Shown here one piece after another: positions 3,682 to 55,700 of a stretch of DNA of 64,000 bases. Each line of letters starts with the position of its first letter. Positions within the stretch are counted from its first letter, which is position 1. The position numbers and the translations under genes were made by a program. The stretch is from Amoebophrya sp. A120 (Eukaryota; Protista; Dinoflagellata), in contig CAJINV010000011.1 in the NCBI GenBank assembly GCA_905178155.1, forward strand, positions 1,201,982 to 1,265,981, in the 5' to 3' direction. Under the pieces are notes generated by a model. That model saw only the letters and a program-made list of their open reading frames with translations, was not told the DNA's origin and made no database searches.

Positions 3682-6600
3682 ATGAATCTGTTACTGTTCT
3701 GGCACAGTGAGATCACCAAGGAGGAGGTGAAGGGGCATAATATGTACACGGTGGAAATCGACCCCACAGATTACAGGTACTTACTGCTTTTGCGAAGATT
3801 GCATGAGGAACAATTTTGGACATGATTTAATTATGTACGTACAAGTAGATGCTTTCATACTGCTCTGCATGGCAGGATGACAGATGAACAAGTGGGATGT
3901 CGTACAACCTCAATATGAAGCAAGAAATGCAAAATCGAAAAATCAAGAAAAACATTAAAAAAAACACACATCCAGGTTTACCCACATTTTCGAAGTCCTA
4001 AACCTTTCTGGCTTCGTCGACCAGGTGGTGAAAGTTGGCATTGTCAACGGCAACACGGGGCTCGGCGAGGTCGAGTGGATCACGTACCCAAGGAATGACT
4101 TGCTCCGTCAGAAACTGGAAACGGGCGACGTGAAGTACCCCGTTTGCCTCCACGTCACCTCCGTGAGCCCGGAGGAGCTGCAGCCCCAGGAAAAAATCCA
4201 ACCCGGGGAAGAGGAGATTGACGCAAAGCAGTTGTTGAGCACAAGGGGAATCGGACGGGAGCAGGACGATGATAGTTATCTGCCCTATGTGTTGGAAAAC
4301 CGAAAAACGCTGATCTGCAAGCGGGTCGGCCCCAGCTACGGTCGCCGGGAGCCGCAGTTCGATCTGGACGGGTTTCTCGCGGCCAAATCGGAACAGGACG
4401 GGGAGCCGCCAAACAAGAGGTCAAGGTCCAACAGCCTGGCCAGTAATACCCCGCAGATGTCACCCGTGAAATACTCGGGGGACAAGAAGCTCGTGCACTT
4501 TATCCAGAGGTACTAGCCATAGCCGCTATGTTCCTCTTTGAGTTTTTTGCTTTTACTTTTGTTTTGATGTTCACTTGGTAATGTTAGCCAGTGCCAGTGA
4601 CATCAGTTTCAATAGCCATCGATCTACTTGTGAGCGAATGCATTAATAGTTACTTGCGCCACATCTACATCAGGCGACAATTCCGTTTGTTATTTGAAAA
4701 TCAATTTTCCCCATCTAAAATCCACTACAGACTCCGTGTCAAGCTGAAATTCACGCCCGAGCAGCTGTACCAGGGCCATGAAATGCAGCTTACGCGAAAA
4801 ACCTTCTTTATGGAGCTGTCAGGTTTGAAATCGTCAAAGTTGAAATAGTTTGCCATGCATAAAATGCAACGCAGAAAGTGTCTGTCTTGCAGAGTAGGCA
4901 AGGGGGGCAGATTGTAAGCCTGTTTTGAGGTAGAAATAAAGCTGCTGAAGTAGCATGACAAAAGGCGACTTCCTTACCCAAACAGCACGACAGACTGGAT
5001 TTCGGATCTACCCAAATTTGTCATGCGCCACTTGGCAACGGGGTTGCAACTTTCATCCATTTTCTGCATTACAAGTTATTTCAACTTTGTCGATTTCAAT
5101 CCTGACACATCCATATTCTTTACCCGCGGCGAACTCGCCCTGGGCCACACCGGTCGTTAGCATACAGAAGGGTGAATTTCCAGTGAACAATTTGTATTGC
5201 GTGGCATGATGCATGGATTAATCTTCAGGTGCATGCGAAGAACTAGAACACGAGGACAACATACAAGAAGCCAGCGCGCCGCGTTGATGGGCTGCTTGGC
5301 TGGTGGCGCTTCCCTCCTGTGGACGCTTGCCGCTTGTTGCCCAAAGAGGCGCACCTGGTGGACTGCGAAGCAACGCAGGTGGCTTAGGGCGGTCTTACAA
5401 CACGACGCTGCATGATCCGCAGACTCGATAGTGGCGGATCGACCGGGACGAGGGCTATGCCTGTAAAGGGGGTCAAAGGTACTAGCTCAACATGTCAAAA
5501 TAGAGAAGTCGCGTCACGGGTTGTGGCTGCCTCGGCTTGGATATCTGGAGACAGGTTGCTACGGATGCTAGCATCGCCTGCTTTGCTTTGTAAGTAACCT
5601 CCTCCCAGCTGTGTTCCTGCCTCATCTTGGTCGGTTCCTCTAGTAGTCTTCTTTGACGTGACCCCCAGGTCAGGAATTCTCTTGGTGAATTTTGAGGCTT
5701 TGTCTTTTTGCGAAACTTTTTTGAAGCCCCAAACTCGGAGTCTCTCACGCGCTAGCGAATTTTGAACAGGCACCGGAACCCAAAATTCACCGGCGCCCTT
5801 TTCAAAATTCACCCGAAAATTCACCGAGCGCCCCTTTTCGACCGTGATAAGCAAACTTTGGCGCAGAAAAGTGCTCAAAAATGTGCACAGGTAGGCCCTG
5901 GGGAGTGGGGCCGAGGGGAAAAGACAAGCGCCCTCTGTTGCCCTCAGCCCGTCTATATTCTGCCGAAAAGGCCTGGGGAGTTCACGCGCCTGCCGGGTAG
6001 AGGCGTCAAAGCTCTCGGCCTGGTCCTTTCACTCGTTTTTTTGCGCCTTCTTCCCTAATTGCATGTGCTTCGCAGCCTTTCTTTTTAGCGTCTTTGCCGC
6101 GGCTGCTGCAGTGCTCTATGCGAGCACAGGGAGACGAATAGACATGGCCAAAGAACGGCACCCAGGCCATGCCTAGAAGCTGCCCGCCGCATAATAAATT
6201 AAGCCTTGACTTCTGCGGTGTGCAGAACCCACTTCCCAGAAGGGCAAGAGGGATAATGCCCCGGCGGACTCATCTGCAATCTGTCATGCAAAATTCACTA
6301 CAAATTCGCCACTTCTCATGCTAACGGGTGTTAAAGCTGTAACTTCTTTACCCGCGGCGAACTCGCCCTGGGCCACACCGCCCCGGCACCGCATATCCTG
6401 AGTAAAAACGTACCCACACCAGAGTTGTAATGCAGATTTGCAAAGACAGCAAGACTTGTAATGCGCATCCGCATGAGAGCCATTTCCAATCGTGATGTGG
6501 GATTTGTGATGCTGTGAACAGGATGAGCAGATGAATCTGTGATGCGGCTGCACTTGCTAACCTGCACTACACTGCAGAGCGCAATTTGTCATGCGTGACT

Positions 6601-8500
6601 CACAAAGCTCCTAGGTTTGTGTTGCAAAATCCCCATCCTGACTCTGGTGTGGGTACGTTTTTACTCAGGATACCGCAGCCAATTTTGTCACCCTCGCAGA
6701 TTGCGCTCGGATCTCCCGAAATGCCACTCTCGCCGCTGATGCGACAGACGCAGGTGAAGGAGAGGAAAGAGGGCATCAACTACGTTTTCTTCAAGGTATA
6801 GGGATCAGTACAACTTTTTTTTGTGCGGCTAGTAATGCGCATCCGTCTCCTGCCATCTAAGGCGTAAGCGGAGCGCACGCTGCATTTATATGACTTTTTT
6901 CAACTACCAAGGAATGTGACCACCCAGGCAGGACGAGCGTAAGCTAGTGTCATGTTGATCATCGCAAACCAATCTTTGTCTTTATGCAACGAAACCCCAC
7001 AACAGGGCGCCGCGCTCCCGAAGCTTCCGGACGGCGTGACAGAGGACAACGACCCGCTCCGGACTCGTCTCTTCTACGTGGAAGACCCCATCCTTTCCGG
7101 CGACCTCTCCGGCAACGACGGGCCGAGCAATCTCGTGAGCAGCGAGGCCAGCGGAGACGACGGCAAGCAGCTCCCCGGCCTGGGCAAGATCTACGTGAAT
7201 GAGAAGGGGGAGAAGATCTACCCGGACGTTCCCGAGAACACGAAGATCCAGGTGCAGTCGAAAAAGGGCGAGGAAACGACCCGCGTCGTGATTCCCGGCA
7301 CGCCCGAGCTGACCGCCGTCCCCGGCGGCAAGAAGGGCAAGGGGGCGAGCCCACACATTTTGAAGCCCCCACCCGCGAAATTGTCCAAGCCCGTGCCGAA
7401 GGCCGAGGCGATGGCGGCGAGCAAGAGGGAAACTTCCGGCAGTCCGGAGCCCAACAAGGAACGAAAATCTGGGCGAAAATCCTCCATGCGACTCGGGAAA
7501 GCGCCGTTGTGGGACGTGCACCCGAATATCGACGTGATTCTCTGCTGTCCACGACCAAAAACGCTGGACAAAATCTTCGCGCAACTCGCAAACTTCGGCG
7601 TCAGGCGAATTTTTGTCGTGGGCGCCGCGAAGAAGGTATTGGGTGGTTCTTTATGTATAGCAAGTACATCATCTGCATCTGTATGTGATGTCCAGTAGCT
7701 GTGTATACTTGTTCATCGATCCCAGTCATACACTGCGTATCGCTTCCAGCACCTCGTTTCGACGAGGAAAGCTATCATGGTCCTCATCATTTTTTCATGC
7801 TCGAGAATAGAACAAGTTTAAGATGAAATTCAAATTATCCAAACCGATTCCTCCATCACAACAGGTCGAGCCGTCCTATTTCAGCAACACGAAAAAACTG
7901 TCCCCCGAGAACATCGAAAGAGCGCTTCTCGAGGGTCTGTCCCAGTCCGCGTATTACACCCGGATGCCGATGGTCCGGGTGTTGCCGAAACTCAGCATCA
8001 CGGAATTGTTGAAGTCCGGGTTCGGCATCAACAGCAAGATCTCACCCAAGATCGAGAAGAACCGCGGCCCGGAGCTCCCGCCGGACCCGACGGACAAGTC
8101 GACGCAACTCACCTTCGCGAACCACGAGGAAGCTTTCAGCGACGTGATGACCAGTGCCCAGATGGAGGAAACGACGATGTTCGCAGTTCGGGGGAAGACT
8201 TGTGCGAACAACTACCAGTACGGGAGTCTCAACCTAGTCGCGCACCCGTCCTCCACTTCCAGGAAAATCTCCGACATCATCTGCGACGACACCTACGCCG
8301 CGTTTCGGGGCGGGTTCTTGGGGAAAAGAGCCTACAACCGCATTGTGCTCTGCATCGGACCGGAGGGCGGCTGGACGGACCACGAGCTGGAACACGAATT
8401 AACCGCGTTCGAACAGGTGTCGCTCGGGCCCCGGGTCTTGAAGACGTCGGACGCCACGCAAAGTGTGTTGACCTTGCTGTACGAAGAGCTCGGGATCTAG
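3682..8500 (+). CDS. RsmE-like SPOUT RNA methyltransferase with long insertions; exons approx. 3682-3776, 3976-4509, 4674-4808, 5121-5152, 6381-6393, 6678-6795, 7006-7635, 7865-8500
   Basis: N-terminus MNLLLF...THIFEVL...VKVGIVNG (PUA-like). Central ILCCPRPKTL...FGVRRI...KVEPSYF...LEGLSQ. C-terminal IGPEGGW and SLGPRVLK are RsmE signatures. Four GT-AG and three non-canonical introns give one open frame. Confidence 0.8.
4809..5115. mobile_element. TIR introner, family A (307 bp)
   Basis: TATGGAGCTGTCAGG...CCTGACACATCCATA with ~39-bp imperfect TIR and TSD TTCTT (4804-4808/5116-5120). Removal gives RKTFFTRGE. Confidence 0.9.
5153..6343. mobile_element. ~1.2-kb TIR-bearing insertion flanked by a 37-bp direct repeat
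   Basis: Imperfect TIR CGTTAGCAT..GAAG..GAATTT..AGTGAA at ~5155 and its reverse complement ending ~6326. Direct repeat at 5116-5152 and 6344-6380. Confidence 0.75.
6394..6672. mobile_element. TIR introner (279 bp) with a perfect 32-bp TIR
   Basis: TATCCTGAGTAAAAACGTACCCACACCAGAGT and its exact reverse complement at 6641-6672; TSD CCGCA. Removal gives APAPQPILS. Confidence 0.93.
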
Positions 8501-17175: not shown

Positions 17176-20100
17176 ATGCAGGAGGCATCCTCGTCGTCTA
17201 CCGCTGCGGAGGAGCAGCTGCTTTTGCTTCCACCGTCGGAATCAACGGGCTCAGTAACTACTGAAAAGAGCGAGGAGTGTGACGGGACGACGACGAGTGT
17301 GAATTCCTCAGAACATCAAGCGTGTGAAGAGTCTGTGGAAGAACGCAAGGCAGCGAAATCGGCTACTAGTAGTAGTAGTACGAGTAGGTCGAGCAGTACA
17401 ACTGCCACTGGGGCTCTCTCTTCATCTTCCGCTACTAGCAATACAACATCTTACGGAAGTTTCGCGCGACGGCCTAGTACACGGGCCGCGTCAGGCAGCG
17501 GGAAATCTTCAAGTAGACCGCGTCGTGAGCCCTTCAAAATAGTGCTGGATCAGTCTCTGTATCTTCCAAGGCACGGCCCTCGTTCGGGAGCAGACTCATC
17601 ACGCGACGCCAGGAGAGCTTCATCAGCGCAAATACACATACCAGAAACAACGCCAAAAGAGCAGGACCGGCATCCGGACCAACATATTCCAGGAGATAAA
17701 AGCACGTTTCCCAAAGTCCGCATCAGCACGGCTTCGTCGCCGGTCTCGTCGACCTCACCCGGAGACGCGACGAGACATAATCTTTCGAGTCGGAAAAAGT
17801 CCTCTTCGCTCCGCTTTCAACCACGGTCTAGGGGATTCACGGCCGAAACGGTGACGTCTGAAGAAGAGCAGGCCGGGAATTCCGGACGCCGGGAGGCTGT
17901 TCCGGGGTCGAACTCACGGCACGACCATCCGGAGCCCGACCTCATTGGGGCGAGCAAAAGTTTTGAGCGGGTGGGGGGAGACACCGGGGTTTTATCTGCA
18001 GTCAAGGAAGAAGTCGTGGTAGCTACGAGGTCGGTGAAATCAACACTGCACAGCTACACGGGCGGCGAACAAAACTCTAGAACCGTTGGCCAAGAACTTC
18101 CTGCGAGCTACCCATCTGCTTCCGTCATCATGTTCGACGCACAGGCGCAGCCGGGGATTCTCACCTCCGATATGGCCTCGTCAACACCGAATATGGTGAA
18201 TCAAGGACCGCTCCTTGTCGCCATACTGAGTGTGTTCATTTTTTGCTTCAACAGCGAGCTACTCCAGGACCTGTCGAGTGAGGTGTCACCCCTCTGCAAT
18301 CTTTGTTGCGCACACATGAGCGGATTGTTGTTTTTCCCGTGGACGAAATGGGCATCGAAATGGAGGAACCGGAATATGCGTTGGCAAAGACCTGGCGGTG
18401 GTGACCACGAGGACACAGCGGGTAGTTCTCCCGTTCCCATTCCGTCACCCGGTGGAGCAGGGCCCGCCCCTTCTCAGGCCGGTGATTCGCAGCAGCAGCG
18501 CCCAGGTGCTGGTGTTGGTTTGCAAGTATCACCAGAACGGGCGACGCATTTGGAGGCTGCTGGGTTACCAAAGCTTCGCGCCGGCGGTTCATCTGGACAG
18601 CACAGCGCGAACAACAAATCGCTGCAAAATAATCATGCTGGAGAACAAGGACATCAGCAGAATCAGCAATATCTTGACTCGCTCTACTCGGATCAGGAGG
18701 AAGAGTCGTCGGTTTCACCGGGCGATTTGTCCCCATCGAGGAAGCGGGGCGATGTGTTCTCAAAATCGGATGTTAAGTTTTGGCAGAAGGCGGCGTTTTT
18801 CTCCATTCTGATCATGAGCTACAACTGGTGCTTTTTGAAAGCGATGGACACGCTGCTCGTGAACACTATGTATGGATCTGTTAGGATTGAAATTGACAAA
18901 GTCGAAAGATTTGTGATGCACAAAATCGATGCCAGTTGGAGCCTCAGTTTCCAAGTGGTGCATGACAAATTTCGGCAGCACCAAGATCCAGTCTGTCATG
19001 CTGTTTGAGCAAAGAACGCTGCTCCTGTTATGCTACTCTGGCAGCACAAGCACATCGCCTTCGCCTAAACAGGCTTGCAATCGGTCTCATATGCCTCCTC
19101 CCCAACGCAGGCCATGCGTGCCCTACATTTTATGCATTACAAATTTTTCGATTTCGTCGATTTCGATCCTGGCACTCCCATAAACACGGTCACGGCTCTC
19201 TACCAGGTGAACGTCGCACTGTGCGGCATTTTATGCATTGCAAAAGTATCGTACTCGTAGTAATTGGAGTCATGCATTACAAATTGCCTTCCCAAGGTAA
19301 AACAGCATGACAAATTTGATTTCTCATGCTGAGCAAATTTGCCATGCGATTTATACTAGTACGATACTTTCGCAAGGCATACATTTTCGAGTACACCCGC
19401 GGACAGGGGTGTACGACGTTCAAGATCAGCGGCACGGTGTTGTGTATGCTAGGTGCAGCGATCGTAGCCTTGTTTTCGCCCACGCGCGGCACCCCCGGCG
19501 ACGATCCGGACGAGGGACCGCGCGGCCACGTCGCGGCCGCCCTGGTGGGATCCTCGTCCGGCACGGGCGTTGCTGCGCACTTCGGGCCGACGGCGGCGGG
19601 CATTGGGTTTAGCATAATGGCCGCAGTTATCCTGTGCAAAAGTATCGTACTCGTAGTAATTGCATTTCTGCATTACAAATCTCTTTCTCAAGGACAAGGT
19701 AAATCAGGAGCATTATAAATTCAATTTGTAATGCTGGGGGAATTTGTAGTGCAATTCCAATTTATATATACTAGTGCGATGCTCGTGCATTGCATAGCAG
19801 TCGGGGCGGCTACTTACGCGTGTCTGCTGGTGGAAATGGTCGGGGTGGAAAAGGTGCGACTTTTTCAGAAAACGATGGTGTAGTTCGTGCTGAATTTAGA
19901 AGAACGGATGATTTCTATTTGTTCTCTTTGGTTATATGTATCAGCCTATTCATCTTCCTTTTCCACAGGCCCGCAACCCCGCCGCCTTCTGTGTGAACTT
20001 TGGTTTTGCGATCAGCTTTTGTCATTTGGTTCTCGTCGTGCCCTTTCTCTTCTTTGCCGACTGGATGCACTGGGAAGAGCTGCGACTCCCGCCCAATCTC

Positions 20101-20646: not shown

Positions 20647-21744
20647 AAATACATAGTTTGAGCTTCCTTTTCTTTACTGAAGTAGTACGCTGTAGAAACA
20701 ATTTTGTATATTCAGGACGTTAAAGTCGATATGAAAGTCTCGTCGACACAATAATTGGAGGTTCGATTTGAACTTCCTCATGAAAATTCAACTTCTTTTA
20801 CCGTGCGCACGTGCGCGCTCGTCGTTGATTCAAGAGTGTAAGTAACAAAACAAGCGCGGAGTTGTATTGTAAAGGAATTTTACGAATTTCAGCTCTGAAG
20901 AAGACACTGACGCTAAACCAAAACTAGCGGCGCAGAGAAAATACCGATTAAGGGTAGACCAACGCGGCTGCCAACCTTTATTAACGCTGCTGCATCAAGT
21001 TAGGTGTGCATCTTCTACATACGAATTTTCAGAATCATCGATGTGTAAAATTGCAACGGACCCCTTTGCTTTTGCATTTGCTGCAGATGCCGCAAGAACC
21101 CTTCCCAATTTCTATGACTCGACGAAATCGAAAACCAATCTTAATGTGGAAGAAGCGCAAAGACCGCCCACGACTTCAAAGTTCGCCGTCGCTGTTGCGC
21201 TTCTGTGGACGACCACCGGCAGACATGCGCTCGCACCGTCCGCAACTCCAAGCACCAGTTGTTCGAAAAAAACAACAACAATAAAACCGATACTGATGAT
21301 TCCACAAAAGATGAACGACGATCCCTTTCCGAACACGACACAAGAAGATCTGGAAACGGCTCTTGCTCCTGCTCCTGCTCCAGATCTTCGACCCTCAACA
21401 AGATGAAGCTGCATCACTTCGTGACAAGGAGGAAATATCTTTATCACCGACAGCGACATCAATTTGTCTTAGATGAAGTTGTAGATGAAGCGCACGATGT
21501 TTATTCACTTCAGATGATATTCATGAAATGATGTCAAGCCACTTCTATGATTTTCTTCGGGTTTGGCAGCGGGGTGACTTTCACGTCCCTTCGCTCTAAT
21601 AACCTTAACCATGACCATGTCGTCAATACAAGAGCGGTAGCGTACGCATAGGCGTAGTTTGATTCCAGTTGTGCCGCTGCCGTCGTTTCTTGTAACGACC
21701 GCGCCGCCCAAGCCCAACAAGAACGACGAACCTCCCAAAGCGCG

Positions 21745-24700
21745 ATGGTTCTCACCCGAGCAGAGCGTAGGAAGCGCACATCAGGCGGCGCAGCCAACCC
21801 ACCTCCAAATGTTAGCGCAGGAGTTGTTCTTGCAGCTCCTGGTGCTGTGTCTGGGGGAGTAGTACTTGCTCAGGGTCAACAAGCGTCCGCATCGGCTTCG
21901 TCCAGAGAGCATTCGCAATCGGGGGTTGCGCCCCCGATCAATGGAGTTGGACAGCAGGGTATGCAGAATGGACGGCCACACGGCAGTGCACCGCATCAAC
22001 GAACCGGCGGCGTGGCTTCATCTGCAGCTGGAACAATGGCTTCGCGCGACCCCACTGTGCATGAGGAAAGGCGTGCGGCCGCAGCACTGGGGTCGTCTTC
22101 ACAACAAGTACAGCATCAGCAACGAGTTCTTGCTCCTGCAGCGCCGGCAACCACGTCCTCGGGGATGTTGGCTTCTGCGCAACATTTCTTTCAGGGAAAA
22201 ATGATGCCCCCACAACAAGAACCTGTTCGTAACAAATCGCCTGCCGCAGCTGGTGCGCCCCCCGCAGGGTTCGTACCGTCCGTTGTTCCGGCTGGTTGGG
22301 AGCGTGTCGAGAGCCGAAATAGACCAGGGCACTTCTACTTCCGAAATCTTGCCACTGGCCAGACGCAGATACAGCCGCCGGTCGTCGGAAATAATAACGC
22401 AGCTTTTCCGATGGTGGTTCATCCCGGACGAGGGCCACAGGTGCAAATATTACCGTCGCACCACCAACCCGCAGAAGCTGTTCTGCCGAATAATGTTCCG
22501 CCATCACCGGATTGGGAGAAGAAGGAAAGTCGGTCTAAGCCAGGGGAGTTCTATTTCAAAAACAAGCGTACAGGGGAGAAGCGTTGGACGGCACCAGAGG
22601 GGTTCTTCAAAGAGGTGCAAGATCCGAGAGGACATGATCCGAAAAACGATCACCGGCAAGAACCGCAAGAACAACCACAGCAGGTACTGGTGGGTACGGG
22701 CCCGAGCGCAAGTTCCAGTTCGGGGAAAAATGCGGGTAGGAGCAGCAACAAGCCGCAGAAGCTTTTCCCTTTTCAGGCAGCAGCTGCACCTGTGGCAGCG
22801 TCTTCATCTGTTACGCCCGGGAGCGGCGGTGCTCTCGTCCATCATCAACCTGTGACAGCCCCTTCACCTGATCCGGGCACCCCAGCGCACGGGCTGCAGT
22901 TTGCCTCTTCCACCGACCGCACGCAACAGCTGCAGTACCAGGAGCAGCAGCAGCACAGCGGGAAAAATCAACCCACAGCTCCGCCAGGTATTCTGAAAGG
23001 GCACCAGCACACTCCTGGAGGCGCTGGTGCCGTTTCCGGACCGCCGGTGTCCAGTACTCGCAAACAGCGGAGGGAGGAGCGCAAAGTGGGTTTCAACTTT
23101 GTGCCGGAACAGAGGCAACAAACAGAGGCAGGTGTTCGTGTTGCTGCGCAAACGCGAAGAGAACATGCTGGAAATTCCGGTGCCAGGCACACGAATAGAC
23201 GATCGCTCGGTGGAAATAAACGGCTTTCCCAAGGTGGTGCTCGGGACAACTCGCAGCGAAGTGGACTTTCCTCGCCAGCAGCATTTCTACCTCCTCCAGG
23301 CATGGGTACTAGTATGGCGAGTCATGGCGACGCTCTTGCGCCACACCATCCACCACGAGGACCAATGCCAGTTGTTGCGACCTCGAGTCACATGGGACTT
23401 TCCCCCGCTCCTTCTTTTCCTGTTCACAATTTCGTGCCACCTGGTGGTACTATTCCCTTTATTCCCACTGGAGCCCACCTCCCGGTTCAGCAGCAACAAC
23501 CATTTGTGAAAGGACAAGCACAACGACCACAAGCGCCACCAGGAGCAGCTTTCGTCGGTCCTGACCCCCACGCTATGCTGAAAGCGCGTGTCCTGGTCGC
23601 CAGTCAGCCGTCAGCACCTCAGCAGCGAAAAAGACCCGCAGTGGAGCAAGCGACCGATAATTCCTCAGACGATACTGGTGCTGCAGCTTCTCTCTCCTCC
23701 TCTTCCGAAGAAGATTCTTCTGACGATGAAGACGAACACGACCTGATCAAGCGCAAACGCATGCTCAATGTCGACAAGCTGTGGCCCCAGGAATTCTCCC
23801 TTAAATCCACCCTCAACGGGACCGCCGCGGCACAACAGAAAGCAAAGCAACTTGCGAATGCGGAAGCGAAAAAGGCGGCGGAAGCGGGGTCCGCGTTGCT
23901 GTCTCGGTTCAAAAACGGCCCCCGGCGAACCCGGGAAAAAAGCGAGTGGGCGCACCAGTACGATTTTACGATCCACGACGAGAAACAGCAGATTTCGTCC
24001 GACGAAGATTTTGGTGTTGGGACGAAACGCGATATCAGGGCTGCGAAAAGAAAGATGAAAAACAAAAACCCGCGGGGGAACAATAAGCAAGCAGATAATG
24101 ATAATTTTTATTCAACAACGGATGGCATCAACCCGGCGCGAGGGGGTCCTCGAGGTCGTGGCAACATCATGCAGCTGGGCGGTAGTGGAGCTGCGTCTGG
24201 TGGTGCGCTTGTAGTTCCGCCTGCAGGCGGTCATCCTGCGGCTCCTTCGGGTAGAAGTTCTGTTGGTGTTCATCTTACAACAGCCGGTGGTCAGCAGCCC
24301 CAGCAGGAAATGCTTCGCCGCGGTTCGTTCAAGCCGTCGACATTGTTCTCCAGAGACCCGCACATATCCGCGCAAAGCCGCAGTTTGTTGCTGGAGCATC
24401 TCAAGGGGCAGATTGCTGCGAGAAAGGCAAGAGGAAATGTTGAGAACAAAGGAAAAGGGCGGAATGGCATCGAAAAGGATCAGGATGAAAATAGGAAGAA
24501 AACCCCGAAAATAGTAATGGCCGTCGAAGTTGAGCACCAAGATGCACCGCAAAACATCGCTCACGTCCTGCAGCAAGCCGCTAAGGAAAATCGTATTTAC
24601 CCATCACTTGCGTGTGCGCGGACTGTGGCGTTTTCTACGAGTAGAAACGGCAACCGGACGGGAGACACGACTTCTACTGCGCCGGGCGTTGTAGCCGCGG

Positions 24701-27700
24701 AATTTATTTTAACCGATAAAGATAATTTGGTGCCGGACTACACAAACACGCGCGTACAGCTGCAGCAACGATTTTTGGGCGGCAAGACACACATGAGCTT
24801 GTTTAAAGGGATGTCGTCATCGTCGTCTGCAGGTTCTAGTGCAATTGCAATTACATCCTCGGTTGTACAGACGGAGATGATGAGCAATCAAGAGCACCAA
24901 TTTGTCCTCGCTCAAAACAACACTTTTGCACGTCTATCAAAATAAAAAATCCCCCCTCCCCATATCGAACAGGAAATTTGTGATGCTGGATTTGCGTACA
25001 CAAATCAGATTTGTCTTGCTGGAGAGGACTGCAGGCCCACATCAAGCCTGAGTACAGAGGTTTTGGCCTAGGCGCTTAGCATGAGAAACGTCTGCGCTGT
25101 AGGCCCAACAGCATCACAGACCGCTTGTATAATACGGCGAAGCCTGTGGAATTGCCTTCTTGCAAGACAGACGTGATTTGTGGTCGCAAATCAGCATTGC
25201 AAATTTTCTGCGCCGTACCTTTTCGATATGGGGAGGGGGGATTTTTCCTTACGATAACGTCCCGACGTGGATCATGCGTCCAGCATCCAGCACCTGGACG
25301 CCGAACATCAAATAAATCTTCGGTCTGGCGTCTCTATTTTCGGACCTGCAGAACGTATGAGGTCCTCAGATGTGAAGTTTCCAATTTTTCCAAAAAAAAA
25401 ACTATCGATGCATAAATAACTATGTAGTTCAGTAGCTAGCTAAGGTGGAGCGGTTTCAAGGTCTCCGGCTGCGTCTCGTAACGGCGATCCGGCATCTCGG
25501 CGAAGCAGGAGCTGGCCATTTGTATGGAGTTTTGAAAATCCTAGTGAGCGAGCATTGAAAAAGCAAATGTCTGATGTGGTTCCCTAATACATGACTCCAG
25601 TAGTAGCGGTCTGATGCACAATCGTCGACGAGATCGGAGAAATCTAAGCTCTACACGGCTCTTACGGGGCACAAATAGGGGTCCTGGAAAAAGGTTGCTC
25701 ACAAATGTCTAGGATCAGTATCTGATGGCGCCGCTCGCTCGATGTGCTCTACGAATACGACCCGCCACGGCTCTCAGAGTCGGCTCTTTCATGTTGTTTC
25801 GATTTACGATATTCCGATCAGGCTTGCACGTAAATTTCGAACGATACGCTCAGGTCGATGCTCTTAGTTTCTAGGCAACGAGCGTTCCACATTGCTGCTT
25901 CTTATTCACAAATCCACATTCTCATCAACCACAGGATCCTCGTCTTTGCGCCCATGCTCACCTCCCTCACCGCAGGTCGTACAGAAGCCGAAATAGAGGA
26001 CAAGGACTGTAGCGACGGCTTGGCGACGAGACCGTTCCGAGATACGCAGCCGGAGACCACGCAACCGCCCTACCTGAGCTAGCTAGTTCATGAGATAGAT
26101 ACTAAATTACCTAAAGTAGCTAGTTTTTTTTTTCGATTTTGTTGAAATTTCACATCTGAGGACCTCATAGAACGACTAAACCTTCGGTCCGCCGTCTCTA
26201 CTTTCGGACCGATCCTCCGGTTTCGGTCTGCCGTACTGAGTGGAAAACTTCACAAATACAAATATCTGCAAAAATTGGTCTTTAGAGGCTTCACGGCTGC
26301 TGGGAGGGGGCCCAGGGTCTGCGAAACGCGACGCCGGTGAGTCGAACACCAGCACGGCAACAGCGCGCGGCGTTGTTCTGTCCGGCAAGGTCCGGAGGGT
26401 TTGGCGTCGCTGAAGGCCATACCGGACGACGACGAGCATGCATGTACTTCAAGAACAAAATCGGAAGGCTGTTGCCTTTCCTTTGTGTCGCGTCCGCCGA
26501 TGCGGTTTGTCGTTTAGCCCGTGATTGGAGCAAAAAAACGCTATTCCCACTTGGAAACTTTCCACAAATGAACAGACCCGACCCCTCCGGAGACCCACAA
26601 ATCTGGGGCCCTTCTGAACAGCCAAATTCCCACTTCCCGCTTGGAAACTTTCCACAAATGAAAAGGCAGGGGGGTCCGGCGACCCCTGCCGGAGAGGTCG
26701 CCCGCGAGCATTTTTCTGCGTCATTTTGATGCGATTTCCGCCTTTCGGCGATTCGCCGCGACCTATTACTGCCTCCGCCGGCGCCGCATGGCGCCGGAAT
26801 TCCGGGCACCCTGGCGTGGCCCCGAGAGCCCTAGTCCCGCCCTGCTAAGCGGCCCGCGCTGGTGCGACTTTGGTCGGGTTAAATGGCGACCGCCTGAGAT
26901 GAATGCTCTGGCGCCCCTCCCAAGGATGCCCGACAGGGCCTGAATTGCTGAAAAGCATAACACTGGGCGCCTGTTTCTCTGCAGTTCTGCCTTTTAAGCA
27001 TCAATTTTTGCAGATATTTGTATTTGTGAAGTTTTCCCCTTAGTATGCCGTCTCTATTTTCGGACCGATCCTCCGGTTTTGGAAGGACCAGCGAAGACTC
27101 TATCACTACCATCTCACCTACTTGCAGGAAACTCGAAAGGCCCGCTACGCCGCTACGCTGCAGGAGAAACTCGGCCAGAAACTCGCCTCCACGGACGGGG
27201 CGAAGCGGATGCGACTGCGGTTCGAGAACAATCTGCCCGTCGCGCTCGCCCAACCGAAAATGCGCTCTCCGCTGACGTATCAAATGTAAAAATGTCTGGG
27301 TGGTCTGGAAGAGTGCATTTTTGTCATGCTTGTCTGGCATGACTGTCAAATCTCTCATGCACGTTACCCAAGAGCACCACTTTTCTGTCATGCAGAAACG
27401 CAGTTCGCCATGCAGAATAGGCAACACCTAGAAGCTCAGAAACTTGTGATGCTGAGCCAGCATTTCTGGCCTCATCATGAGACGCCACCCAGCATCACAA
27501 GTTTCCAGACCCAGACATTTTTACATTTGATATGACGCTGTGCGAACTTTGCTGGAAGACCGCGGTGTACAAGGATAAAAAGACGAAGCAGCCGGTTTGC
27601 AGCCAGAACTGCCAAGTGGCGTTGCAACTGTACCGAGACCCCATGGGCCTGGAGAACGACAAGTACGGGGGGAAAGGTGCAAACCAGGCTCTGTGGAAAA

Positions 27701-36033: not shown

Positions 36034-36200
36034 GAGTTTGAAGTATACATTCTGCGTTGCAAGATTCGCGAGTCACGCGTTGCTTACTTATAGTATGACC
36101 TAGGCTGTCAGTTCACGCGATGAGCTATACACAGCTTTTGGACGCATTCCAGGTTCCTGTGTTTTGGTGAAAGTTCTCGCCGAGCGCGCACGCTCAGCAC

Positions 36201-45108: not shown

Positions 45109-47734
45109 ATGGCCACCACCACAATGAAAGCGAATCGGTCTGCTCTGGTGACGAGAACTCGACCGATGCCTTCTGCGATAGCCACTACACCGTTGCTCCC
45201 GCAACAACCGGGAACAGCGACTTCACGCTGCACTACGAGGTTCTTGTCGTTTTCCCTTTTCTCAACTTCCGCGTCAACATCGTCTTCAGTTCGGACAAGA
45301 ACTCCCAAGGAGAACACATCCCCTTCGCAACATGCCCATGAGCTGCTGCACCGCATGCCGAACTCTACCCGCAACTTTCTACAGTCAAAGTTAAAAGAAG
45401 CAAACCAAAGGAGAAGAGCGATTCTATCCGTCGAGGCAGAAAGGAGGAAACGCCACCTGCGGAGCCTGCATATGCATTGCAAATGTGTCTGGGTCTGGAA
45501 GGTTGCAACTTGTAACGCTGTCTTTGAATTCGAAATCGAATTCCAAGAAAATCTGTATTGCAGGACCAACAACAGGAGTCCAGTTTGTGTATACGCTGAG
45601 AGGGCATTTGTCATGCGGAATAGGCGCGAAGAAGCCCTCTAAAAATCTGTGATGCTAGACCATGCATTACAGGCATCGCGGATCATACAAAATATGCATG
45701 ACAAGCCTGGCAATGTTCCAGACACAGACATATTTGCATTTGATACTGCATCTGACAGAGCAAGAGATCGCTGCGGACGACGCTGTGCACTCACAAATTG
45801 CTGCGTTGATGATGGAAAACGACAATGCAGGAGCTGATGACGGAGATGAGACACGGCCGGATTGTTCCAAGAACATCAACCCTCCTGAGCAAATAAACTA
45901 CGTGAAGAACAGCCACCCGCTCTCACAGTGGCTCACTGTTGCGGATGACCTGCTCCAGAGGTCCGCTACGCTCACAACCGCAGACGCGGTGCTTGCCCTG
46001 CGGTGTTTCTACCACGCCGAAATCGCGGACTCGAATCTGGTGCATGCGCTAGTTGAGGTATTGGTGGTGAGGCTGAAACAGAGCCTGGAACGAGCGGAAA
46101 TGGTCGTGGAAAGAAGTGCTGTAGGTGGTTTAAGAAGTGGGCACGGAAGAGGTACAACAGCGACACCAGGCTCTTATTCTTTCATGGAAATAATGGTGCC
46201 AACATCATGTGGAGATCAGGGCGACACAGAAGATCCTGAAGAATTTCTTGCGGGCGTAGCAGCGGAGTTGGAGAAAGTGGCTGCGTTTGCGAGAGAAGTA
46301 GGAACAACTCAGACGCTCGGAAGTTGTGCTACGGCAAATCAGTTGGACTGCGCAAAGGTTGTAACAGAAGATGAAGGGGCGGCGACTGAACTGACAGACC
46401 GGGATCATGAAAGCAGCGACATCAAAGTAGATCATCATGAGAATGATTTACCTGATCACGCAAAAACTATATCACCTAGTACCAGACTCGCGAACACGGT
46501 GACAGTAACCTTCCTAAGCCCTGCTTGCGCACGTAGACTGCGGCGCACACTAGTAGACTGCGTTAACGCCTTTTTGCGAATCGCATTCCGGACGTTGAGA
46601 CAGAAGCAGGACCGGACTCTTGACAGCGGAGGACGGGGAGCAGCCTTCTCTTCGACGTCGTCCAGGACGAGCGGTGTCAACATAAACGGCGGCTGCACGA
46701 CGACAACCCTTCATCGTTTCACGCTGACAGGTTTTCTGGTTTCGCTTGCGATCGACGATCGTCATTCTTGCAAAGAGTTCTTGTGTACTGAGCGCAGCAA
46801 TCTATCGTCTCTAACGGCCGCCGCACAAATTCCTGACGGGGAGGTAGGCGCTACTCACGTTGAGGGCCTCCAGACGAAGAAAACACACGCGAGGATCTTC
46901 GAACAAGACCAAACCGATCGCAAACGCTCGCAAATCCTCACGGTGCTTTCGACCCAGCACCTGAGCATCCTCCCTCTCCGTGACCTCCTGAGGCTCCAAG
47001 CCCGTGCGGAGCACGATCCGGAACTGAAGTCGCTGTACGAGGCGTCCTGCTCCCGGGAACGGGCCATGCTGTCGGCCATGGGCGTCAGCGAGGTTTTTTC
47101 GCTCCTGTGGCAGGAAACAATAATGAACCAGCTTGTTCTTTCTGAAGAAGATAATTATTCCGAAGCCGAGATGAAGGGCGCGACAGGGCGGACTCTAGCT
47201 GAAGAGGACCCAGGGCCGTTCGCGCGAAAACTGCGGGCAGTGCTGAATTACAAGCTAGCGGCGCTGACCGTGGAAGACATTCGCCGTTTGCCGCAGCGGT
47301 TCCAGATTTTAGAATTGCTGTTACGAACAAGTGAGGAGAAGATGCGAACAAGGCAGGGAGCAAGCACATCATCTACTTCAGGCTGTAGTACCAGCACATC
47401 TGCACACGGAGCAATAAACCTTGCACTGTCGCCAGCGGAGTTTGCCTTCGCTCAGAACCTGGCCACCTACGCTCGACAGAACGTTTCCGCCTGCTCCTCC
47501 AAGGATCTGGCGCTGCTCGGAAAAGCAATGGAGGGGCGAAGCTGCATACCACTCGCGCAGGCTATTCGCCTGCATTTGATGAACCAGTGCAGGAAGGAAG
47601 AACTCAGGTGGACTTCATCTTCAAATTCGAGATCAGGGAGCTCTATTGCCGCTCCTATCAAGAAAACACAGTCTTCTGTTTATTTTCATTCGCCTTTCAG
47701 TACAACTACAACTACACAAGCTGCGTTTGCGTGA
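45109..47734 (+). CDS. Hypothetical helical protein; exons 45109-45470, 45751-47734
   Basis: Two ORFs are joined in frame (RSLHLTEQE) by removing the introner at 45471. Confidence 0.7.
45471..45745. mobile_element. TIR introner, family F (275 bp)
   Basis: TATGCATTGCAAATGTGTCTGGGTCTGGAA...TTCCAGACACAGACATATTTGCATTTGATA; TSD CTGCA. Confidence 0.92.
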
Positions 47735-49721: not shown

Positions 49722-52700
49722 ATGTTTGACACCATGAGACCTCCCACAGCATCCCGATCACCCACCACGACGAGCGAGATCTTTTTGTACTAAGCAGGAC
49801 GTCGCGTCGTGTGTTGAAAACACGATTTTATTCCCTGGTCATTTTTGAGACCTGAAGACCGCGAGGATCAGACACCGATCTTCACTTCGCCCGTCATGCC
49901 GTCGATCAGCGTGGATTCCATGCGGATCGACGAGATCGAGCAGTCGCTGGAAAAGAACCCGACGCAAACGGCGCTGTGGCTGCGATACGCGAAACACTGG
50001 GAGAACACCGACGAGGTCAACGCGCTTGCCGTGTATAACGATGCGGTCCGGCGTTGCCCGCACGTGGAACTGTGGCGGCAGTACATCGAGTACTGCAAGC
50101 GGTGCGTCACGGTGAAAGGCGTCGTTGCAGTCATGCACGCGGCGATCGACGTGATATCCCACGACCACCGATGCGGGGATTTTTATGCAATGCAAATTTC
50201 CTGTACATGTACAAAATGCATCACAAATTATGTCACAACCAACTTGGAGGATGCCATTTGTCTTGCTGAATAGGATTCAGTGAAAGCTTTGTCATGCAGA
50301 AACCGCATTTGTACGTCGTGTACGGGAAATGTGCTGTGGATAATTTGTTTCAGGAGTACATCGCGCTGCTGAAAGCCGTGTGGAACTACCAGTACAAGTA
50401 CTATGCATTGCAAAAGTATCGTACTAGTATAAATCGCATGACAAATTTCCTCAGCATGACAAATGGAATTTCTCATGCTGGTTTGCCGCAAAACAAAGAT
50501 TTGTAATGCATAACAGCAATGACTACGAGTGCGATACTTTTGCAGTGCATAAGTACCGAGACGAACTGATTCTAGACGACTACGACCCTGCTTTGTTACT
50601 GGGCGACCCAGACGCGGATGCGGCAAAACTGGCGGAAGAGGAAACGGAACTTGCGAACAAGTGCGGCGGGCACATCCCGCTCACGCACGACGAGGACGAG
50701 TCCATTAAGTGGATCGCGAAAAAAGCTCCCTCCGACAGCTACATATCGGTCAAGACGAGGCTGTCCCTGGAGCACATCCGAAGGCTATCGAGACAGGTAC
50801 AGCTACTTGGTATATTCTAATGCTGGATGTAGTTGGGTGTGGACGTTTTTTTATTTCAGATTCCCATTCCATGTTGGAAGTCGTGGAACTTGTTTTACAT
50901 GAACGGAGCAGTTGCTGTTGCAGTCTGCAGAACGTACCATACGCTTATGACCGTAGTGGATGTTGAAGATACTTCGCCATCCTTTTTTTAGTTGCGATAC
51001 AGCACGACCGCGATTCTTGCGACCTGTTCTGACTTGAGAGCATTTTTGACAGGTTGTACTTGTCATGCAATTTTTAATGTCACACGATCTTGTTGCCATA
51101 TTAAAATGACTATCAGGCCTGCACCAGTCCTTCTTCCTGCGTCGACAAGATTGTGAAAGCTTACGAAACGTTCGAGGACAAGCTGATCGGGCACAAACAT
51201 TCCCTCTCCAACACGATGGACAGGGAGGGTGTCGTGAAGGAATTTTACCACAAAATCACCAACGCGAAAAACGTCTACCAGAAACTCGAAAAACTGTACC
51301 AAAACGTCGACACGCTGACCATCCCCCAACCCGAAGTCTCCGTTTTGTCCAAAACCCCCTCGAAATCGACGAACCAACTGCTCAAATGGGCGGAACTACT
51401 GTCCAATTGCGAGCAGATCGTGCAATTTGAGCGCGGGAACCCGTTGAAGCTCGAGGTCGCGGATTACCAAACGCGAGTGATTTTCCTGTACCAAAACATG
51501 CTTCTAATCACCTCCTGCTTTGCCGACTTCTGGTACAGCTTCTACCAGTTTCTCTACACCTTTTCTCCGGTGAAAGCCTTGCAGGTTTTGAAAATCGCCT
51601 GCGAGAAACTCCCCAACGATTTGTTCCTGCGGTTGAGTTACATCACCAATTTCGAGGAGCTGATCTACAAGAAGCACTTCAACGCGACGTTGCTCGGCGA
51701 TGTGATGAACAGCCAAGCAAGCACTTCCGGCTCTTATCAAATGCAAATATGTCTAGGTCAGGAAGATTGCTGAGGTTTGTGATGCTGTGTCTGCTTGACA
51801 CAGAAGGTGTGCCATGCAAGGCTTAGCATCACAGGTTTTGAGACGGTTTTCCAATGCCTAATCCGCATGACAAATGCCTTCTTTCGGCGACAGGAAAAAG
51901 AGCTTCATCTTTTGCTGTCCAAGCATGACAGATTTTTGTGTGGTCTAAGTATGCATCACAAGTTCGCATCCTTACACAAGACCCAGACATATTTGCAATC
52001 AATAGCTCTCTCCATGAAGCGATCTTCGACATTGAGAATTCGCCGGAATATGCGACGCTGTTGAAAGATATGGATTTGGTGCTGCAGAAAACGGCGAAGC
52101 AGAAAAATAATCCCGACGATCCGGACAAAATCGAGTTTGATTTTGACGAGGAGGATCCGGAAATCGAGATCCCCCACACCTCGAAGTTCCGCCAAGGGAG
52201 CAGCAAGGAGCAGAAATACAAACTCGTTTTCACGTTGTACGAGAAACTTTTGCAAGAGCCGTTCTTCGAGGGGGAGCAGTACGCGCTGGTCATCATCCAT
52301 TTTTTGAATTTCATCCGTCGCCAAGCGGGTCCCGACCAGTGGCGGGATTATTTGTTGAAAAAAGTCTTCATCAACAACCACCAAAAGTTGACCTGGGAAG
52401 TGTACGCCAGTCAGGCGTTGGTGGAATACCACTGCTTCGGGGAGAGGGATCGCTGTGCGCAGATTTACAAAATCGGTATTAAACAACTTCTTCGTCTTGG
52501 TATTGCTATTGGATCATGACGGCTAGTTCTTCTGTTATTGATGCTGATCAACATGAGATTTTGCTTTTATTTTTGCAGACCTACACTAACGCTGGAAATT
52601 GATGCAGTTTCGGTTTCCAGCAAATTAAAACCTCACGAATTCTTCTATACAGCCCTAGACCGCTTCCGCACGGTGGAGACTTTTGAGCCGTCTTTAGTTG

Positions 52701-55700
52701 CGTCCTTCGTCAACTTTCTGATTTCGGTCAACGATTTAGCCGCCGCCCGGGACGAACTTACCCTGGCCATGCAGAAGTGCTACAAACTCCTCCGCGAGAT
52801 TCAGCACAAATCCGACAACCGAAACCAGAAGGACAAGCGGGTCCAAACCGAGAAGCAGAAACTGGGGCAGGGCTTTAAGTTTCTCTTTGAGAAATTGATC
52901 CGATTACAGCAGTATCAAATGCAAATATGTCTGAGTCAGGAAGATGTCATGCTGTTTTTGCATGACGCAGAAGGTCTGGCATGGAAGCCGTAGCATCACA
53001 GGTTTCGAGAAGGTTTCGCAATGCCTAATCCGCATGACAAATCCCGCACTTCGGTGACAGGAAGTGGACATCTTTTGCTGCCTATGCATGAGAGATTTGC
53101 GTGTGTTGTGAAATGCGCATCACAAGTTCACATCCTTCCAGACCCTGACATATTTGCAGTGCATAAGCAGTCCTACGGCGACGACCAAGATTCCTTTACG
53201 AAGATTCTGTATGCACTGCAAAAGTAACGCACTAGTATGAATCGCATCACAGATTTGCTCAGCATGTGCATGATATAAATTGAGTTTGTAATGCTGATTA
53301 GCGTAGTAGAGATGTAGATCTGTCATGCATGAATGCGATTCGTACGAGTGCGATGCTGTTGCAGTGCATAGTCTGCAGCAAAAAAACCAGTTTCTCCTCG
53401 AGTCGGTCCCCGACGTGGCGCTGGTGCAAGCGGAGAGCTTAGTCGGCGACCATATTCTGTCTGACGCGCACGAGGACGCGGCGATCAACGCGTTTTTGAA
53501 CGACACCCTGACGACCATGCTGCACGTCAGCGGCGATCCGACCGACCCGGCAGCTGGTAGGATTTTTTATAAGTACTTGTCTTCTGGATGTGGTCGTTCT
53601 TGTTCTTCGCTCTGCCGTGTGTAGAAGTCTCGAAAGAGAGGAAGTAGTTCCTCTGTCTCTATGTGACATTGACATTCTGCAGCTCCAGGATATAAATTTC
53701 TAACGTCGAAAAAACATCACTATCAGCCTTCGAGGACGAATTCCAGCAATTTCAGCAGCAACAGCAGCAGCAACAACAGGGTGGAAAGAAGGGACGGGGG
53801 AAGCGGCAAAAGGGAAAGACGTTGTCCCACTACGACATGCGGGACGCGTTTCACAGCGACAAAATCATCCACACCTACCACCTCGACCAGGACTACAACC
53901 GACCCAACTTCTTGCGCGCGAACCTGCTCAGCTCCATACTGCAGCCGGGTGCGAACAGTTTCTTCTCCTGCAGCTCCGTGCTCCCCTTCGCCGAGGCGCA
54001 AAGCAGGTATGTTGTGATATACAATGAATCACGACTTCCTCTACTGACAATTATGAAGACACTATGTTTATGCAGCTACGTCGGAGAGCGGCGGCGCCGC
54101 CGTGTGAAGATGGTGCGTGTCAATGTTTATAACAACTCAAGAAAATCAAATTTTCCTTTATCCGCCATAGGTTCAAGTTCCAACACCTGACCCCCAACAC
54201 CAACAAACTGAACCCAGTCGCGTCGAAGAATTTTGACAAGTACAAGAAAGCCACCGACGCCCAGGAGGAGAAAGAAAAGGAGAAGGAAAAGCAGGAGCAG
54301 CGGAATAACCGAGGCAGAAACAGGAACAACAAACACAACGACCGCAATAATAATAACCAGGGTGCTGGCGGCGGCGGGCTCCTCACGGTCGGCCAGGTTC
54401 GGAGCAAATCCGGCTCTTTCGCCGAGGACGCAGAAAATTCGAAGGAGGTTGTTTCGAGCAAGGCCGCCGCGAAGACAACTGCAGCTGGGAATAAAACCAC
54501 AGGAAATAATCTGCTAAACAAGGAGGGCTCAGCTGCATCCGGCGCGGAAGGTGAACAGGATCAGGATCAGATTGCGCTGATGGTGAAGCAACGCATGTTG
54601 GCACAGTTTGAGGACAGCGATGACGACTTGATGCAGGGAATCAACTTTCGGGACGAGGAAGTAGACGTAAACACCGCCACGAAGAAAAAGCCCGCTGCGG
54701 CCCCGAAAAACCGCGTAACCCGACCGGACACGGCGCGGATGCACGCGTTTAACCCCATGAACGCGGTGCAGATTGCTTCGGCGGGACAGAACCTGGGCCA
54801 AGTGTCGAACATTTTGCCGAAGGTCTTGCTGGACCTCCAGCAAATGCTACCGAAGCACAAGGTTTGTCATTCTCTACTTGCTTTTTAGTTTTTTATTCAT
54901 TCTGCGTTTGCGTATACGCTTTTGCTTATGCTAGAAGATGCCTCTTGGTCTTGAAGGTGGTAGATTTATTGGAGAGTGAGTAGATGAAGTACAAGACACA
55001 GTCGCAGATTGACTATATACTTTTTTTTGTTCCTGCTCGACAAAAACCCGCTTTTTTTCCTATCGCGACCCACATACTATCAAAAAGAAATGTCCTCCAC
55101 ACCTAACCTCACAGCAGGTGCTGAAGGGATCAGCCCCGGACGTGGACTACATCATGAGCGTACTGCAGACGGTTGAGGTTCCCGAGCTTCCCCTCGACCA
55201 GTTCTGCAAGGCGCAACCGGACCCGGGCAGCGGGTTGGGCGGCCGAAGCAAGGACGCCGGGTTTATGGGCGGCCTCGGCGGCGGCTTGTTCGGCGGCGCG
55301 GGCGCGCGGGTCACGTCCCTGGACGAAAACACCGGGATGATGCACGCCGTCGGTGGCTCCGTACACAACTTTTTGATCGAAGGCGCGGTGGATGAAAGCA
55401 GGTTGGATTTGATCTTGATTTCGCAGCTGTTTTATATTTTCTTCTACTGGATATAGATGCTCATGGTGTAGTCTGTAGTCGCAGCTGCATGCAGCTCCAT
55501 GACATGTTGACACATGTGTGGCGCTTGTGCTTTCACGAAGATTTCTGCATGGTGTAAAACAATAGACCCGGCGGCGTGGTCCCAATCGCTCATGTATTGA
55601 TATGGTCAACATATGAACACCAGGTACCGAATACGCGGGGCCGGCACGGGGCAATCCGCTGCGCTGCGCGAGCCCCGTCGGGTGAAAAAGGCTCCCGGCG

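What the first reader, a model, noticed from the sequence alone, without database searches (positions are those of the whole stretch)
4809..53165. The same introner families occur in both orientations in sense-strand genes
Seen: family A copies 4809 and 59211 run opposite to 18867; family B 19232 is opposite to 50402; family F 45471 is opposite to 51735 and 52913 by end asymmetry. All host genes are on +. Inference: removal cannot depend on a strand-specific branch point or polypyrimidine tract, which favours symmetric hairpin recognition.
Basis: partly seen in the sequence, partly recalled or inferred. Interest (0 to 1): 0.75.

Follow-up and report, generated by a model that had tools for sequence, protein, structure and literature searches.

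The report
Introns that work in either direction
In the marine parasite Amoebophrya, an already described kind of small mobile intron sits forwards or backwards in genes about equally often and is missing from the spliced transcripts either way, so the cell likely recognises these introns by their paired ends rather than by the usual one-way intron signals.

Summary
Observation confirmed. The window is Amoebophrya sp. A120, and the elements are its published non-canonical introners: TAT..ATA inverted ends, 5-bp target duplication. Interior alignments confirm every named orientation pair, and all hosts are on +. Both orientations are removed as element plus one duplication: 7 of 7 elements are skipped in transcript contigs, and deposited proteins match the models for 50402, 51735, 52913, 53210 and 45471. 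Among copies with a called host strand the orientations are 56:56. The 4809 copy is not a clean intron: it lies in a compound insertion. The inference is only partly right. One-strand interior signals are excluded, but signals inside the inverted ends (a U-run in 122 of 144) are not, and the hairpin requirement is not shown (G·U vs A·C 77:58, p=0.12). The system is not fully symmetric: the cut likely falls after target base 3-4, and one family-B stem position is U·G in 33 copies but C·A in 5 (p=4e-6), unexplained. The class is known; I found no report of orientation-blind removal. The scan noted similar hairpin introns in other genomes, none on orientation.

The parts
4809..5115 (.). Family A introner, reference orientation; first part of a compound insertion 4809-6348 in an RsmE-like gene (+)
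   Evidence: not tested in RNA
5116..6380 (.). 37-bp direct repeat (5116-5152, 6344-6380) around a second, CACC-ended inverted-repeat element; one repeat copy is predicted to stay in the mRNA
   Evidence: homolog P0123 collinear across the predicted junction
6394..6672 (.). Family G introner, target repeat ccgca
   Evidence: frame restored; homolog collinear
18867..19182 (.). Family A introner, opposite orientation, 4 extra bases at the left end; spliced
   Evidence: joint skips 321 = 316+5 in 4 of 4 runs
19232..19381 (.). Family B introner, opposite to 50402; spliced
   Evidence: joint skips 155 in 4 of 4 runs
19628..19796 (.). Family B introner, same direction as 19232; spliced
   Evidence: joint skips 174 in 4 of 4 runs
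24935..25256 (.). Family H introner; spliced
   Evidence: joint skips 327 in 3 of 4 runs
25356..26169 (.). 814-bp introner without the internal 10-mer or the A-run at +11..13; spliced
   Evidence: joint skips 819 in 2 of 4 runs
26234..27045 (.). 812-bp introner with TAC..GTA ends; spliced
   Evidence: joint skips 817 in 3 of 4 runs
27278..27532 (.). Distant family F introner, same direction as 45471; spliced
   Evidence: joint skips 260 in 3 of 4 runs; interior scores 37-40 vs shuffle maximum 27
45471..45745 (.). Family F introner, opposite to 51735 and 52913
   Evidence: deposited 803-aa protein P0125 equals the model with element+5 removed; no bridging contig listed
50184..50342 (.). Family K introner, mismatched target repeat (position 5); the downstream copy is kept there
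50402..50551 (.). Family B introner, reference orientation, in the CstF-77/Suf gene; spliced
   Evidence: contig coordinates fit exactly; P0121 identical across the junction
51735..52004 (.). Family F introner, reference orientation; spliced
   Evidence: contig piece stops at 51729 and runs on elsewhere; P0121
52913..53165 (.). Family F introner, reference orientation
   Evidence: P0121 identical across the junction; contig length fits (one of 39 fitting models)
53210..53370 (.). Family B introner, reference orientation; mismatched target repeat (position 1), upstream copy kept there
59211..59515 (.). Family A introner, reference orientation; mismatched target repeat (position 3), upstream copy likely kept there
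   Evidence: contig piece begins at 59519 with 277 nt lying elsewhere; open frame of 614 aa
49896..56158 (+). Host gene, CstF-77/Suf homolog, five introners plus seven GT-AG introns (end approximate)
   Evidence: 1201 of 1202 columns identical to P0121
17176..20643 (+). Host gene, 901 aa with hydrophobic C-terminal part, three introners; no Pfam hit
21658..27723 (+). Host gene, WW plus zf-HIT, four introners

Best explanation
These are MITE-like mobile introns of Amoebophrya A120 that lie in coding exons in either direction and are removed together with one 5-base target duplication, likely by a machinery that reads only the two inverted ends as a paired stem. Shown: structure, both orientations about 1:1, exact removal in both, no GT-AG or other shared border. 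Inferred: a transposase inserts the element at random orientation; the two ends pair in the pre-mRNA whichever strand is transcribed; a structure-guided factor then cuts at fixed distances from the stem base (likely 1-2 nt before the 5' arm and 3-4 nt after the 3' arm) and joins the exons, as proposed for euglenid nonconventional introns. Recognition would be symmetric in sequence but polar in geometry. The enzyme is not identified.
For: 7 of 7 elements in 17800-28000 are skipped as element+5, no alternative joint listed. Deposited proteins match models for both orientations. Element+5 restores the frame best in 112 of 116 scorable copies, of 203 examined. Orientation B 42:39, F 8:11 in fetched loci; B 29:27 with an independent host-strand method. 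5'-role and 3'-role ends cannot be told apart at positions 1-20. Borders readable as GT/GC-AG in 11 of 144, chance 10.4. Interiors differ among families (150-814 bp), and two spliced copies lack the shared internal 10-mer. Both strands fold equally. Three mismatched target repeats bracket the cut after base 3 or 4.
Against: No significant general G·U over A·C excess (77:58, p=0.12; non-B families 25:23 at positions 8-20). Positions 4-7 of the ends pair in only 33-72% of copies. Predicted pairing of the outer 10 bases is only 0.42-0.44 for three removed copies (24935, 51735, 52913). A U-run inside the ends is available to a spliceosomal factor in both orientations. End symmetry is explained by transposition alone. 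The cut offset rests on three copies of three families, and a codon-model test on 24 further mismatched repeats was uninformative. RNA evidence is contigs of one sample whose RNA status is a guess of the tool; efficiency per orientation was not measurable.
Confidence: 0.55

Rival explanations
1. A re-tooled U2/U6 spliceosome without U1 removes them, reading sequence signals that sit inside the inverted ends and so appear in both orientations; the hairpin only helps or is a by-product.
For: U-run in 122 of 144 3' ends, in both orientations. Nearly all spliceosome proteins present and U1 not found in A120 (PMC7789003 section 10). Tunicates splice non-GT-AG transposon introns with the spliceosome (PMC11282704 section 6). 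The strand-polar site at family-B position 21 could be a sequence read in the 5' arm.
Against: No shared border dinucleotide at offsets 1-4, the likely cut range; offsets 0 and 5 share only the element's own TA at one side. Target bases are nearly random. Families A and I lack the A-run/U-run at that position yet are spliced. A stricter branch word (YTRAY) lies near the 3' end in only 7/44 and 6/41 family-B copies.
Confidence: 0.3
2. The joints are reverse-transcriptase template jumps across a hairpin between direct repeats, or the polymerase skips the hairpin during transcription, so no RNA splicing occurs.
For: Hairpin plus direct repeat is the textbook setting for such jumps (recalled). It is orientation-blind. 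All RNA data here are presumably cDNA-derived.
Against: The joined form is the only one listed, with no depth inside the two 0.8-kb elements. Five insertions interrupt CstF-77, whose frame needs every removal and is collinear with the A25 ortholog, which argues against a pure library artefact. Target repeats tolerate mismatches at all five positions (30 of 720 sites; the caller allowed only one mismatch). Polymerase skipping in vivo is not excluded.
Confidence: 0.08
3. The elements are cut from the DNA, like ciliate internal eliminated sequences, and the transcripts come from cleaned templates.
For: TA-bounded, orientation-blind and precisely removed, like such sequences (recalled).
Against: In DNA run X1 unique contigs run into the element ends at normal depth (26-32) without a listed break at the junction (table 8, truncated). 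One target copy is removed with the element.
Confidence: 0.04

Closest known systems
Introner elements among the non-canonical introns of Amoebophrya A120 (Farhat et al. 2021, PMC7789003; read: abstract, sections 10, 11, 12, 16, 25, term passages, supplement part 2 of 5 and a term search of it)
   Same: Same strain; inverted repeats starting TAT, then 7 variable bases and an A-run; 3-5 bp direct repeats; non-canonical borders; hairpin bridging already proposed; mechanism left open.
   Different: In what I read, 'orientation' refers only to gene order. Element orientation against the host, constant removal of one 5-bp repeat, the cut offset and the position-21 polarity are not given.
Euglenid nonconventional introns (PMC12501133: abstract and discussion; PMC11282704: section 6 and passages)
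   Same: Non-GT-AG borders, paired ends, target-duplication-like repeats, proposed MITE origin, stem set off from the cuts with a longer 3' than 5' overhang.
   Different: Euglena code is N3-CDG...CH'G-N5-6|R; here TAT..ATA with an inferred 1-2 and 3-4 nt offset and no purine rule evident after the cut. Circular excised introns are reported there and untested here.
Spliceosomal TIR introners of algae, dinoflagellates and fungi (PMC9860276: section 7 and passages; PMC12130899: passages; PMC8469720: passages)
   Same: Non-autonomous TIR elements that become introns; some are internally symmetric.
   Different: They carry or co-opt GT/GC and AG; here such borders occur at chance rate (11 of 144). 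PMC9860276 allowed opposite-orientation matches in its method but I saw no orientation result; PMC12130899 required 5'-to-5' similarity. I recall that Huff et al. 2016 may describe both orientations for Aureococcus introners; the paper was not held, so this is unchecked.
IS3EU/GingerRoot DNA transposons (PMC10045372: passages)
   Same: TA..TA termini; an integrase-like frame was reported in an A120 TIR introner family (PMC12130899 passage).
   Different: Their target duplications are usually 6 bp; here 5 bp. No transposase was examined here.

Membership tests
Amoebophrya A120 introner elements | Host is Amoebophrya A120 | tested here: met
   Window proteins 100% identical to named A120 proteins P0001, P0121
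Amoebophrya A120 introner elements | Terminal inverted repeat starting TAT, A-run after 7 variable bases | tested here: met
   T-A-T in 98-100% (the caller required TAT/TAC); AAA at +11..13 in 127 of 144; families A and I lack the run
Amoebophrya A120 introner elements | 3-5 bp direct repeat at the borders | tested here: met
   5-bp repeats visible in a scan blind to them; 174 of 212 exact, though that caller required at least 4 of 5
Amoebophrya A120 introner elements | Removed from RNA at non-GT-AG borders | tested here: met
MITE / non-autonomous TIR DNA transposon | TIR, target duplication, many dispersed copies | tested here: met
   (summed DNA contig depth of thousands to tens of thousands vs about 27)
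MITE / non-autonomous TIR DNA transposon | Cognate transposase acting on these ends | not testable with these tools
   No genome held; records behind the loci not held
IS3EU/GingerRoot | TA..TA termini | tested here: met
IS3EU/GingerRoot | 6-bp target duplication | tested here: not met
   0 of 212 with a flush 6-bp repeat (caller tuned to 5 bp); window copies 5 bp
U2 spliceosomal intron | GT/GC-AG borders | tested here: not met
   0 of 16 window copies can be read GT-AG or GC-AG; 11 of 144 vs chance 10.4
U2 spliceosomal intron | Branch point and pyrimidine tract near the 3' end | tested here: inconclusive
   U-run and TNAY word lie inside the ends in both orientations; YTRAY rare
U2 spliceosomal intron | Lariat intermediate, snRNP dependence | not testable with these tools
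   Only contigs mapped
Euglenid nonconventional intron | Base-paired ends, non-canonical borders | tested here: met
   Predicted folding
Euglenid nonconventional intron | N3-CDG...CH'G-N5-6|R code | tested here: not met
   Ends read TAT..ATA; inferred overhangs 1-2 and 3-4 nt
Euglenid nonconventional intron | Excised as full-length circles | not testable with these tools
   No raw RNA reads of this strain mapped
Self-splicing group I/II intron | Conserved catalytic RNA core | tested here: not met
   No Rfam match in the window at gathering score; unrelated interiors of 150-814 bp

The most novel reading that the evidence does not exclude
Amoebophrya A120 runs a second, spliceosome-independent splicing system that excises any TAT..ATA hairpin at fixed offsets whatever its orientation, interior or target sequence, which made its transposons harmless at any coding site; and the transcript leaves a strand-specific mark on the element (U·G but not C·A at family-B position 21), either by selection on the RNA stem or by a transcription-linked change of one adenine.
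Probability: 0.4. Interest if true: 0.85.

Novelty: already known. Interest (0 to 1): 0.55.

Why it matters
How Amoebophrya removes tens of thousands of non-GT-AG introns is stated as open in the paper that described them. Orientation-blind, target-blind removal narrows the signal to the terminal 20-25 bases and explains how a transposon can colonise coding exons without needing a splice site in the target. It also supplies natural experiments: flipped copies, mismatched target repeats that locate the cut, and one polar stem position whose two states can be compared for intron retention in RNA-seq of this strain. The element class and the hairpin idea are already in print, which caps the score.

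Tried and rejected
No genome was held, and the records behind 30 loci were not searchable, so family A has only 2 extra copies. Viral contigs gave 0 matches. The joint table was filled by DNA-run repeats, so evidence there comes from piece coordinates. The internal 10-mer GCATNACA[A/G] (46 of 48 hits inside elements, 14 of the 16 elements; my notebook says all 16, which is wrong) was rejected as a splice signal: it has no fixed distance from the 3' end, occurs only antisense in 6394, and is absent from two spliced copies. A general G·U bias and a general sense-strand A>G bias (273 vs 254) were not found. For position 21: age-dependent build-up was not seen (G in 9/14 young, 8/23 old copies), inheritance was not seen on a poorly resolved tree (27 changes vs 24.9 shuffled), and a purge of C·A insertions predicts about 2:1 orientation against 39:38 seen (p=0.005). 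No such site was found in family F (n=23). The codon-model test of cut position on 24 mismatched repeats was uninformative. Low-confidence host calls (74 of 203 copies) were left out of the counts; among 40 family-B-like ones the position-21 split was 12:7, not significant. Copy 18867 was left out of the 144-copy set because of its 4 extra bases.
Full report
What the window is. A conserved exon at 48022-48552 is 100% identical to a protein named Amoebophrya sp. A120 and 78% to A25; the CstF-77 exon gives the same result. The window holds ordinary GT-AG introns and 16 elements of one build: 5-bp direct repeat, TAT (once TAC), an inverted repeat of about 20-60 bp, a family-specific interior, ATA (GTA), repeat. 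This matches the introner elements described for this strain (PMC7789003 section 11).

Observation. Further copies extend the pattern: 19628 runs with 19232, 53210 with 50402, and 27278 with 45471. All six host genes are on +. One correction: 4809 is followed by a 37-bp direct repeat that encloses a second element; removing the A copy alone ends the frame after 216 codons, removing 4809-6348 opens 679 codons, and a homolog is collinear across that junction. It is not a clean test case.

Are both orientations removed? In 17800-28000, contigs of runs X3-X6 list 8 joints: one GT-AG intron and 7 of the 7 elements, each skipping the element plus exactly 5 bases. These include the opposite-direction copies 18867, 19232, 19628 and 27278. 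The runs are one sample and the tool only guesses they are RNA; the GT-AG joint and empty intergenic bins support that guess. For the reference direction, one X3 contig has piece coordinates that fit removal of 50184 and 50402 to the base (299 nt) and breaks off at the 51735 repeat. The deposited A120 protein P0121 equals my model with 50184, 50402, 51735, 52913 and 53210 removed (1201 of 1202 columns). P0125 equals the model without 45471. The published A120 gene models were built from transcripts (PMC7789003 section 25); that these proteins come from that pipeline is my assumption. For 59211 the evidence is indirect: a contig enters the window at 59519 with 277 nt lying elsewhere, and the frame opens. 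In DNA run X1 unique contigs run into the element ends, so the removal is not at DNA level as far as contigs show.

A larger sample. A family-B end pattern found 128 loci in metagenome contigs, holding 203 distinct elements, with best identities to window copies of 75-89%. I treat them as the same or a close lineage, without proof. A codon model trained on the window called host strand correctly in 321 of 325 calls at the margin used (554 positions tested); the strict rule called 0 of 175 non-coding positions. Host strand was called for 129 of 203. Orientation against the host: B 42:39 (81 of 122 copies, p=0.82; strict 38:34), F 8:11 (19 of 25), A 0:2. With window copies A+B+F is 56:56, 95% interval 0.40-0.60. 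An ORF-length method agreed in 78 of 80 calls and gave B 29:27, F 6:13. Interior-only orientation was clear in 84 of 85 B copies, and orientation is scattered over the family tree (32 changes vs 28.6 shuffled). Removing element+5 beat +3 and +4 in 112 of 116 scorable copies. Small families G, H and K were 3:0, 3:0 and 2:0, too few to judge.

What the symmetry proves and does not. No interior signal confined to one strand can be needed. Ends in the 5' role and 3' role are alike at positions 1-20, target bases are close to random, and GT/GC-AG readings occur at chance rate. Both strands fold into end-closing hairpins of equal strength. But signals inside the ends survive a flip: a U-run lies 11-13 bases from the 3' end in 122 of 144 copies. 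The ordinary introns of this genome show little pyrimidine tract by eye. If the RNA stem were under selection, G·U pairs should outnumber A·C in the transcribed direction; the count is 77:58 (p=0.12), and positions 4-7 are often unpaired. So ends-only recognition is well supported, while recognition by pairing rather than by sequence is likely but not shown.

Two polar features. First, three copies with mismatched target repeats show which copy is kept: upstream at position 1 (53210), upstream at position 3 (59211), downstream at position 5 (50184). If one rule holds, the cut lies after base 3 or 4, so the intron has 1-2 unpaired bases before the stem and 3-4 after it, a geometry like that of Euglena introns (PMC12501133 abstract). 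Second, at position 21 of the family-B ends the transcribed 3' arm carries G in 37 of 79 copies but the 5' arm carries the matching C in 8 of 79; U·G 33, C·A 5 (p=4e-6; the only strong site among 37 positions tested). It holds with the independent host call (25:3) and points the same way in both orientations (22:2 and 10:3). Three simple models did not fit (see Tried and rejected). Selection on the stem, a sequence read in the 5' arm, and a transcription-linked mutation remain open.

Mechanism. Most likely a transposase inserts the element either way, the ends pair in the pre-mRNA, and a structure-guided factor cuts at fixed offsets and joins the exons (0.55). The main rival is a re-tooled spliceosome reading end-borne sequence (0.3); template jumping (0.08) and DNA excision (0.04) fit worse.

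Literature. The class and the hairpin idea are in PMC7789003; its main text and supplement use 'orientation' only for genes (supplement figures not visible, parts 1 and 3-5 seen only through the term search). Searches aimed at orientation of introners listed no paper that I saw report it for these elements; the one hit (PMC10228655) I saw only as a listing. Huff 2016 was not held; Roy 2023 and Henriet 2019 were not read; supplements of PMC9860276 and PMC12130899 were not read and could hold orientation data. Other Amoebophrya strains use GT-AG (PMC12005148 passages). Earlier notes of this scan mention similar hairpin introns in other genomes, none on orientation and none for this genome.

Verdict. 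A real and well-supported property of a known system, apparently not yet reported, which narrows an open mechanistic question and offers direct tests. Interest 0.55.

Noticed in passing
window 5116-6380: A second element with CACC-type inverted ends lies between two copies of a 37-bp exon stretch; the frame needs net removal of 4809-6348. It may be one compound intron or two nested removals with a 37-bp rather than 5-bp repeat.
   Followed up: partly
family B ends, position 21; L001-L128 and window 19628, 50402, 53210: Transcript-strand polarity at one stem position: U·G 33 vs C·A 5; a neighbouring change at -22 often accompanies it. Unexplained.
   Followed up: yes
target repeats of 144 sense-oriented copies: In mismatched repeats the upstream copy has A/T and the downstream G/C in 20 cases, the reverse in 6 (30 mismatches). 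Post hoc, unexplained.
   Followed up: partly
element ends, positions 4-7: A small vocabulary (GCAT, GCAC, CCTG, CAAA, GAAC) is shared across families and both ends, and pairs poorly, while positions 1-3 and 8-20 pair well: a likely internal loop near the stem base.
   Followed up: partly
14 of 16 window elements: A repeated internal 10-mer (GCATNACA[A/G]) in both directions, 46 of 48 window hits inside elements; likely a transposase-binding subterminal motif (inferred).
   Followed up: partly
window 42594-43445: 852-bp element with TCACCGG..CCGGTGA ends and an interior of nested palindromic 73-bp repeats, no 5-bp target repeat seen; a different class from the TAT elements.
   Followed up: no
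window 18867-18870: Four extra bases (a duplication of the element's first four) lie between target repeat and inverted end, yet the whole 316+5 is removed, so the left cut follows the outer TAT or the target repeat rather than the longer paired stem.
   Followed up: partly
window 25327-25362, 26191-26226, 27047-27082: Three copies of a 36-bp coding repeat in the WW/zf-HIT gene, separated by the two 0.8-kb introners.
   Followed up: no
window 56200-58300: GC-rich (about 0.69) stretch without transcript contigs and with a 637-codon frame on the minus strand.
   Followed up: no
window 28119-28700 and 36198-36370: Dispersed direct repeats of 140 bp (94%) and 173 bp (99%) not built like the TAT elements.
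   Followed up: no
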